This document shows positions 34,451 to 35,281 of a stretch of 64,000 nucleotides of DNA, piece after piece; the first letter of the stretch is position 1; each line of letters begins with the position of its first letter. The DNA comes from Escherichia coli (GTDB lineage Bacteria; Pseudomonadota; Gammaproteobacteria; Enterobacterales; Enterobacteriaceae): the NCBI RefSeq assembly GCF_051903065.1, contig NZ_CP178438.1; one strand, 5' to 3'. A program made the translations under genes and the position numbers. The notes beneath the pieces are model-generated. The model was not told the DNA's origin. It made no database searches and worked only from the letters and a program-made list of their open reading frames with translations.

Positions 34451-35281
34451 ATGTTTGTTCCATTTCTCATTATGTTGCGCGAAGGGCTTGAAGCCGCGCT
34501 GATTATCAGTTTGATTGCCAGCTATCTTAAGCGTACCCAGCGAGGCCGATGGATTGGTGTGATGTGGATTGGCGTGTTGCTTGCCGCTGCGTTGTGCCTG
34601 GGCTTGGGTATCTTCATTAACGAAACCACCGGCGAATTTCCGCAAAAAGAGCAGGAACTGTTTGAAGGTATCGTGGCGGTGATCGCCGTGGTGATCCTTA
34701 CCTGGATGGTTTTCTGGATGCGCAAAGTGTCGCGCAACGTCAAAGTGCAACTGGAGCAGGCGGTCGATAGCGCATTGCAGCGTGGAAATCATCATGGCTG
34801 GGCGCTGGTGATGATGGTCTTTTTTGCCGTTGCAAGGGAAGGGCTGGAGTCGGTATTTTTCCTGCTGGCGGCATTTCAACAAGATGTCGGGATCTGGCCG
34901 CCGCTGGGTGCAATGCTCGGTCTTGCTACTGCCGTGGTGCTCGGCTTCCTGCTCTACTGGGGCGGTATTCGCCTCAATCTTGGTGCATTTTTTAAATGGA
35001 CCAGCCTGTTTATTCTCTTCGTCGCCGCAGGGCTGGCTGCAGGTGCCATTCGCGCATTTCATGAAGCCGGATTGTGGAACCACTTTCAGGAAATCGCCTT
35101 CGATATGAGCGCGGTGCTCTCAACTCACTCGCTGTTTGGCACGTTGATGGAAGGGATTTTTGGTTATCAGGAAGCGCCGAGCGTCAGCGAAGTCGCCGTC
35201 TGGTTTATTTATCTCATCCCGGCGCTGGTGGCATTTGCTCTGCCACCACGCGCAGGGGCGACAGCGTCTCGCTCCGCGTAG
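34451..35281 (+). CDS. efeU: Ferrous iron permease EfeU (FTR1 family), apparently intact
   Basis: ATG 34451 (MFVPFLIMLREGLEAALIISL...), 276 aa uninterrupted, with two REGLE motifs (REGLEAA and REGLES). Confidence 0.9.
   Translation: MFVPFLIMLREGLEAALIISLIASYLKRTQRGRWIGVMWIGVLLAAALCLGLGIFINETTGEFPQKEQELFEGIVAVIAVVILTWMVFWMRKVSRNVKVQLEQAVDSALQRGNHHGWALVMMVFFAVAREGLESVFFLLAAFQQDVGIWPPLGAMLGLATAVVLGFLLYWGGIRLNLGAFFKWTSLFILFVAAGLAAGAIRAFHEAGLWNHFQEIAFDMSAVLSTHSLFGTLMEGIFGYQEAPSVSEVAVWFIYLIPALVAFALPPRAGATASRSA

What the first reader, a model, noticed from the sequence alone, without database searches (positions are those of the whole stretch)
34451..35281. efeU reading frame is intact
EfeU is encoded as a continuous 276-aa FTR1-type permease with both REGLE motifs (REGLEAA and REGLES). 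From memory, K-12 carries a frameshift that makes efeU a pseudogene. This strain would therefore have a functional Fur-regulated EfeUOB ferrous iron uptake system; a Fur box lies at 34374-34392.
Basis: partly seen in the sequence, partly recalled or inferred. Interest (0 to 1): 0.35.

Follow-up and report, generated by a model that had tools for sequence, protein, structure and literature searches.

The report
Intact efeU gene, normal for E. coli

Summary
An ORF from ATG 34451 to TAG 35281 (+) encodes an uninterrupted 276-aa FTR1/EfeU permease. It has two REGLE motifs (aa 10-14 and 129-133) and seven hydrophobic segments. Intact efeO (35339-36466) and efeB (36472-37743) follow it.

K-12 DH1 efeU is annotated 'frameshifted'. 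My alignment places a one-base deletion in the GG at window 34556-34557 (codon 36, GGT), which gives a stop after 36 aa. PMC3577903 describes the same lesion.

A Fur box is present. Its palindromic core is at 34378-34392.

None of this is unusual. The K-12 deletion allele is an exact match in only 367 of 5,426 complete E. coli genomes. An even sample of 60 of these is mostly K-12 laboratory derivatives. The intact allele is the species norm.

The window's EfeU differs from the experimentally functional O157:H7 protein only by V19I. The same DNA is found at 100% in three public genomes. The locus is already known, so interest is low. That the system works in this strain is inferred, not shown.

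The parts
34373..34391 (+). Fur box, 19-bp register (CGTAATGATAATCGCTATC). The palindromic 7-1-7 core TGATAATCGCTATCA runs 34378-34392.
   Evidence: 15/19 to GATAATGATAATCATTATC. It is the only match of 15/19 or better in the window, against 0.19 expected. The core has 2 mismatches and is the only such hit, against 0.26 expected. It is identical in K-12, O157:H7, E62 and ECNB21-M121. Binding by Fur was not tested here.
34399..34413 (-). CpxR-box-like direct repeat GCAAAGAAAAGTAAA, between the Fur box and the start codon. This is a weak, inferred part.
   Evidence: One mismatch to GTAAA-N5-GTAAA. The window holds 8 such hits against 4.2 expected, so the match is not significant on its own. The literature lists CpxR as a regulator of efeU (PMC4145685; title of Cao et al. 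2007).
34451..35281 (+). efeU, intact, 276 aa plus TAG: inner-membrane FTR1/OFeT-type iron permease.
   Evidence: Pfam FTR1 over 1-275, E 2.5e-89. NCBIfam EfeU equivalog 330 bits against a cut-off of 255. Seven hydrophobic peaks.
34478..34492 (+). First REGLE (REXXE) motif, aa 10-14, in hydrophobic segment 1.
34505..34507 (+). Codon 19, ATC (Ile). O157:H7, E62 and repaired K-12 have GTC (Val). This is the only amino-acid difference from the common EfeU protein.
34556..34558 (+). Codon 36, GGT (Gly). K-12 has lost one G of the GG at 34556-34557. The window keeps both.
   Evidence: Alignment with K-12 DH1. The DH1 gene is annotated 'frameshifted'. [quoted passage not shown]
34835..34849 (+). Second REGLE (REXXE) motif, aa 129-133, in hydrophobic segment 4.
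35339..36466 (+). efeO, intact, 375 aa: periplasmic cupredoxin plus M75 (imelysin) protein.
   Evidence: Pfam Cupredoxin_1 and Peptidase_M75. NCBIfam EfeO 480.9 bits against 270. PDB 7wgu, E 3.6e-229. Two to three substitutions from the K-12, O157 and E62 proteins.
36472..37743 (+). efeB, intact, 423 aa: Tat-exported DyP-type peroxidase/deferrochelatase with an SRRRLLK twin-arginine motif at aa 13-19.
   Evidence: Pfam Dyp_perox_N and Dyp_perox_C. NCBIfam TIGR01412 617.6 bits against 428. PDB 2y4f and 3o72, E about 1e-265. Three to five substitutions from the K-12, O157 and E62 proteins.

Best explanation
This is the ordinary wild-type efeUOB operon of a non-K-12 E. coli chromosome. EfeU is a seven-helix inner-membrane permease of the FTR1/oxidase-dependent iron transporter family. 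Its two REXXE motifs, in helices 1 and 4, are the family's proposed iron-handling sites. According to the literature, ferrous iron in the periplasm is oxidised and handed on by the periplasmic partners, EfeO (cupredoxin + M75) and EfeB (Tat-exported DyP haem peroxidase). EfeU then moves the iron into the cytoplasm. The system supports growth at low pH under aerobic, iron-poor conditions, and EfeB can also release iron from haem. Iron-loaded Fur represses transcription through the box 60-78 bp upstream of the start codon, and CpxR also controls it. Shown here: the reading frame is intact, the K-12 deletion is absent, the family memberships hold, the operon is complete, and a Fur-box match is present. 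Inferred from near-identity to characterised alleles and from the literature: transport activity, its pH dependence, and actual Fur and CpxR control in this strain.
For: The 276-aa frame is intact and carries two REGLE motifs. It matches FTR1 and the EfeU equivalog over full length, above the curated cut-offs. It has seven hydrophobic peaks, which agrees with the seven transmembrane regions stated in PMC9174327. The protein is identical to the O157:H7 EfeU (WP_000497942.1) except for V19I, and the O157:H7 system is reported as non-cryptic and functional (PMC3577903; PMC3832793). K-12 lacks one G in codon 36 and the window does not. efeO and efeB are intact, pass their equivalog cut-offs and are nearly identical to solved E. 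coli structures. The Fur box is the only match of its quality in 64 kb and lies directly upstream. efeU is listed as Fur- and CpxR-regulated in PMC4145685. The same DNA occurs at 100% identity over 24 kb in three independent complete genomes.
Against: No functional data exist for this allele. V19I lies five residues after the first REGLE motif and is untested, though it is conservative. EfeB carries P12L immediately before the twin-arginine motif. The sigma-70 scan found no promoter of 9/12 or better on the + strand upstream of efeU, so the promoter position relative to the Fur box is not established here. Sequence upstream of 34317 differs from K-12-type strains, so any distal regulatory input could differ.
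Confidence: 0.93

Rival explanations
1. The frame is intact but the system is nevertheless crippled in this strain by its private substitutions: EfeU V19I, EfeB P12L next to the Tat motif, and EfeO V29I and Q234K.
For: These differences from the K-12, O157 and E62 proteins exist. V19I is close to the first REGLE motif. P12L abuts SRRRLLK.
Against: All the changes are conservative or lie in signal-peptide or n-regions. Both REGLE motifs and the SRRRLLK motif are untouched. All three proteins score far above their equivalog cut-offs. The allele is shared by at least three independent isolates, and 18 records have 99% identity or more over the efeU region.
Confidence: 0.03
2. The main physiological role of the intact operon is to extract iron from haem in the periplasm (EfeB as deferrochelatase, EfeU importing the released iron), not to take up free Fe2+.
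For: PMC3577903 reports that the O157:H7 EfeUOB system promotes iron release from haem in the periplasm and transport of that iron to the cytoplasm. NCBIfam names EfeB a 'deferrochelatase/peroxidase subunit'.
Against: The same literature, and PMC3832793, describe Fe2+-dependent growth at low pH. The two roles are not mutually exclusive, and nothing in the sequence distinguishes them.
Confidence: 0.15
3. The intact frame is an assembly or sequencing artefact (a miscounted G run), and the strain really carries the K-12-type lesion.
For: The lesion is a one-base change in a short GG run.
Against: GG is only a dinucleotide, not a long homopolymer. The intact 62-mer is an exact match in 3,636 complete genomes. 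The region is identical in three independent assemblies. The flanking SNP pattern is not K-12-like.
Confidence: 0.01

Closest known systems
EfeUOB (YcdNOB) of E. coli O157:H7 and Nissle 1917 (Grosse et al. 2006; Cao et al. 2007, as cited in PMC3577903, PMC3832793 and PMC9174327)
   Same: The gene order is the same: efeU-efeO-efeB between putP and phoH. EfeU is identical except for V19I, and EfeO and EfeB differ by 2 and 5 residues. The Fur box is the same. The 2.5-kb putP-efeU spacer is the one found in O157:H7.
   Different: The only differences are EfeU V19I and a few substitutions in EfeO and EfeB. This exact allele has not been tested functionally.
efeU pseudogene of E. coli K-12
   Same: It is the same locus, with about 98% DNA identity. 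The K-12 protein, once repaired, is identical to O157 EfeU.
   Different: K-12 lacks one G in codon 36, giving a 36-aa truncated product. The window keeps GG. K-12 also has a short putP-efeU spacer of about 0.4 kb, against 2.5 kb here.
Yeast Ftr1p/Fet3p high-affinity iron uptake (FTR1/OFeT family)
   Same: The FTR1 fold family, the paired REXXE motifs, and dependence on an extracytoplasmic oxidising partner (PMC3832793).
   Different: The bacterial partners are EfeO (cupredoxin-M75) and a DyP peroxidase rather than a multicopper oxidase. PMC3577903 gives about 25% similarity to Ftr1p.

Membership tests
EfeU / FTR1 (OFeT) iron permease | Full-length match to the family profile above the curated cut-off | tested here: met
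   Pfam PF03239 FTR1: 299.8 bits against 25.3, residues 1-275 of 276. NCBIfam NF041756 EfeU equivalog: 330 against 255. TIGR00145: 351.7 against 303.8.
EfeU / FTR1 (OFeT) iron permease | Two REXXE motifs in transmembrane helices | tested here: met
   REGLE at aa 10-14 and 129-133, inside hydrophobic segments 5-23 and 119-137.
EfeU / FTR1 (OFeT) iron permease | Seven transmembrane segments | tested here: met
   A crude Kyte-Doolittle scan gives seven peaks of 1.59 or more, plus one weak peak of 1.17. This agrees with the seven transmembrane regions stated in PMC9174327. No dedicated topology predictor was available.
EfeU / FTR1 (OFeT) iron permease | Operon with efeO (cupredoxin-M75) and efeB (Tat-exported DyP peroxidase) | tested here: met
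   efeO lies 57 bp downstream of efeU, and efeB 5 bp after efeO. Both are intact and above their equivalog cut-offs.
EfeU / FTR1 (OFeT) iron permease | Iron transport activity | not testable with these tools
   Inferred from 275/276 identity to the O157:H7 protein, which is reported functional.
K-12-type cryptic efeU allele | One-base deletion in codon 36 giving a premature stop | tested here: not met
   The window has GGT at 34556-34558. K-12 DH1 lacks one G.
Fur regulon promoter | Fur-box match in the promoter region | tested here: met
   15/19 at 34373-34391. The 7-1-7 core has 2 mismatches at 34378-34392. Each is unique in 64 kb.
Fur regulon promoter | Fur binding and iron-dependent repression | not testable with these tools
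   The literature states that efeUOB is Fur-repressed in E. coli. This was not measured for this strain.

The most novel reading that the evidence does not exclude
The 2.5-kb variable insert between putP and efeU is found in about 12% of complete E. coli genomes. It ends only 134 bp upstream of the efeU start codon. It brings about 1 kb of AT-rich (32-37% GC), ORF-poor DNA and an uncharacterised 447-aa repeat protein. This insert could change efeUOB regulation relative to K-12-type strains, for example through H-NS-type silencing or a new upstream input. Alternatively it could encode a factor functionally tied to the iron system.
Probability: 0.05. Interest if true: 0.3.

Novelty: already known. 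Interest (0 to 1): 0.05.

Why it matters
It matters little. The result confirms that the window comes from a wild-type, non-K-12 E. coli with the standard, presumably working EfeUOB low-pH iron uptake system. That EfeUOB is cryptic in K-12 and functional in O157:H7 is stated in the title of Cao et al. 2007, and the codon-36 deletion is described in PMC3577903 (2013). The only practical value is as an annotation check. The gene should be called intact efeU, and K-12 should not be taken as the reference state for this locus.

Tried and rejected
1. I searched the 19-bp Fur consensus with up to 3 mismatches and found nothing. The site has 4 mismatches and was found by a scored scan instead.

2. 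The sigma-70 promoter scan of 33900-38100 found no + strand promoter upstream of efeU. By eye, TTGTAT-16-GATAAT (34357-34384) overlaps the Fur box, but it is below the scan threshold and I do not claim it.

3. The CpxR-box scan found a well-placed site at 34399-34413, but hits at that stringency are not enriched in the window, 8 against 4.2 expected. I kept it only as a weak, inferred part.

4. A PDB sequence search for EfeU found no solved relative.

5. Cao et al. 2007 (PMID 17627767) is not held in the library. I cite its content only through papers that quote it.

6. An Rfam scan of 31700-38200 found nothing.

7. Pfam, NCBIfam and PADLOC scans of the neighbouring 447-aa ORF found no family. 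A blastp self-comparison did not report its internal repeats, but a direct alignment did.

8. The antisense 215-aa ORF 34436-35083 (-) and other overlapping ORFs lie inside efeU. I treated them as chance frames and did not test them.

Full report
**Observation.** The ORF list shows one continuous + strand frame, 34442..35281. The in-frame ATG at 34451 gives 831 bases, which is 276 codons plus TAG. RefSeq uses the same start in strain ECNB21-M121, whose DNA is 100% identical to window 34300-35340. The translation contains REGLE at residues 10-14 (followed by AA) and at residues 129-133 (followed by S). A hydropathy scan gives seven strong hydrophobic segments, and the two motifs lie in segments 1 and 4. 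This matches the 276-aa, seven-transmembrane description of EfeU in PMC9174327.

**Identity.** The protein matches Pfam FTR1 over residues 1-275 with E 2.5e-89. It also passes the curated cut-offs of the NCBIfam EfeU equivalog (330 bits against 255) and of TIGR00145.
- efeO (35339-36466, 375 aa) has cupredoxin and M75 domains. It starts 57 bp after the efeU stop.
- efeB (36472-37743, 423 aa) is a DyP peroxidase with an SRRRLLK twin-arginine motif. It starts 5 bp after the efeO stop.
- Both are intact, pass their equivalog cut-offs, and are nearly identical to solved E. coli structures: 7wgu for EfeO, and 2y4f and 3o72 for EfeB.
- No solved structure is related to EfeU by sequence.

**The K-12 comparison.** In K-12 DH1 the orthologous gene is annotated as a frameshifted pseudogene of 830 bases. 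Aligning the window with DH1, O157:H7, E62 and ECNB21-M121 shows a single gap in K-12. One G of the GG at window 34556-34557 is missing. This site is codon 36 (GGT, Gly), and the K-12 frame then ends after 36 residues (...RGRWIV*). Restoring the G gives a protein identical to O157:H7 EfeU. [quoted passage not shown] PMC2808357 likewise states that the MG1655 transporter is non-functional because of a frameshift in efeU.

**How unusual is an intact efeU?** It is not unusual.
- The efeU region is present in 5,417 of 5,426 complete E. coli genomes.
- A 61-mer spanning the K-12 deletion matches exactly in 367-368 genomes.
- An even sample of 60 of these is mostly recognisable K-12 material: MG1655, W3110, DH10B, MC4100, TOP10, XL1-Blue, JM83, O16:H48, laboratory-developed strains and transconjugants. 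All have chromosomes of 4.5-4.8 Mb.
- The intact 62-mer matches exactly in 3,636 genomes. Most of the remaining matches are in the 95-99% identity band, which for this 62-mer corresponds to one to three differences; 367-368 of them are accounted for by the K-12 allele itself.
- So at least 93% of complete genomes lack the lesion, and K-12 is the exception. I did not count other kinds of disruption.

**This allele.** The window's EfeU differs from the common protein WP_000497942.1 (shared by O157:H7 and E62) only by V19I, ATC against GTC at 34505-34507. EfeO differs from the O157 protein at 2 positions and EfeB at 5. One EfeB change is P12L, just before the Tat motif. Over 24 kb the window is 100% identical to three public chromosomes: 23CRST027, 23CRST031 and ECNB21-M121. 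It is therefore an ordinary natural E. coli lineage.

**Regulation.**
- The classical 19-bp Fur consensus aligns best at 34373-34391 (15/19). This is the only match of 15/19 or better in the window, against 0.19 expected.
It does contain the palindromic 7-1-7 core TGATAATCGCTATCA at 34378-34392, which has 2 mismatches and is the only such hit, against 0.26 expected.
- The box is invariant among the five strains aligned. It lies 60-78 bp upstream of the ATG.
- The literature states that efeUOB is Fur-repressed. PMC4145685 lists efeU as Fur- and CpxR-regulated, with a computationally detected Fur box.
- A CpxR-like direct repeat lies at 34399-34413 (-), but such matches are not enriched in the window. 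I treat it as a lead only.
- The consensus promoter scan found no + strand promoter upstream of efeU, so the promoter position is not established here.

**Mechanism.**
- Shown here: the frame is intact, the K-12 lesion is absent, the family memberships hold, the operon is complete, and a Fur-box match is present.
- Taken from the literature: EfeU is the Ftr1p-like inner-membrane permease. EfeO (Sec-exported) and EfeB (Tat-exported) act in the periplasm in iron oxidation and delivery. The system supports growth at low pH under aerobic, low-iron conditions. It can also recover iron from haem.
- Inferred: this strain's system works in the same way.

**Verdict.** The observation and the interpretation are both right, but the feature is the normal, already described state of a well-studied operon. 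Novelty is 'already known' and interest is about 0.05.

**Surroundings.** The one locally variable feature is outside the finding.
- Between the putP stop (31777) and 34317, the window carries 2,538 bp. K-12 and E62 have about 406 bp there.
- This insert is present in 645 of 5,426 genomes, including O157:H7.
- It holds a 447-aa ORF on the minus strand with no family match. The ORF has three C-terminal repeats of about 62 aa.
- It also includes about 1 kb of AT-rich, ORF-poor DNA next to the efeU promoter.
- The Fur box and everything downstream of 34317 are shared with K-12-type strains.

Noticed in passing
window 31779-34316: There is a variable insert between putP and efeU: 2,538 bp here and in O157:H7, against about 406 bp in K-12 and E62. 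It is present in 645 of 5,426 complete E. coli genomes, at 99% or more in O157:H7 and as a roughly 93% variant in others. Its right end is only 134 bp upstream of the efeU start codon.
   Followed up: partly
window 31926-33269 (-): A 447-aa ORF is annotated 'hypothetical protein' in public genomes. It has no significant Pfam match (only two sub-threshold hits, including a faint PipB2_N match, E 0.041) and no NCBIfam or PADLOC family. Its C-terminal half consists of three tandem repeats of about 62 aa, with invariant W, AR.YL and G positions.
   Followed up: partly
window 33400-34300: About 1 kb of AT-rich DNA (32-37% GC against about 50-55% in the flanks) has no ORF of 100 aa or more and no Rfam match. 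It lies between the 447-aa ORF and the efeU promoter.
   Followed up: partly
window 34382-34400 (+): A hairpin, AATCGC-TATCACT-GCGATT, is followed by a T-rich run. It overlaps the 3' half of the Fur box, and the terminator-like scan flagged it. Its significance is unknown.
   Followed up: no
window 37744-37900: Imperfect GC-rich palindromes that look like REP elements (GCCTGATGCGGCGCT..., GCCGCATCCGGCG) fill the gap between the efeB stop and phoH (seen in the printout).
   Followed up: no
E. coli genome collection, matches to window 34300-35340: Seven of the 5,419 matching places for the efeU region lie on records labelled as plasmids rather than chromosomes. I did not examine them.
   Followed up: no
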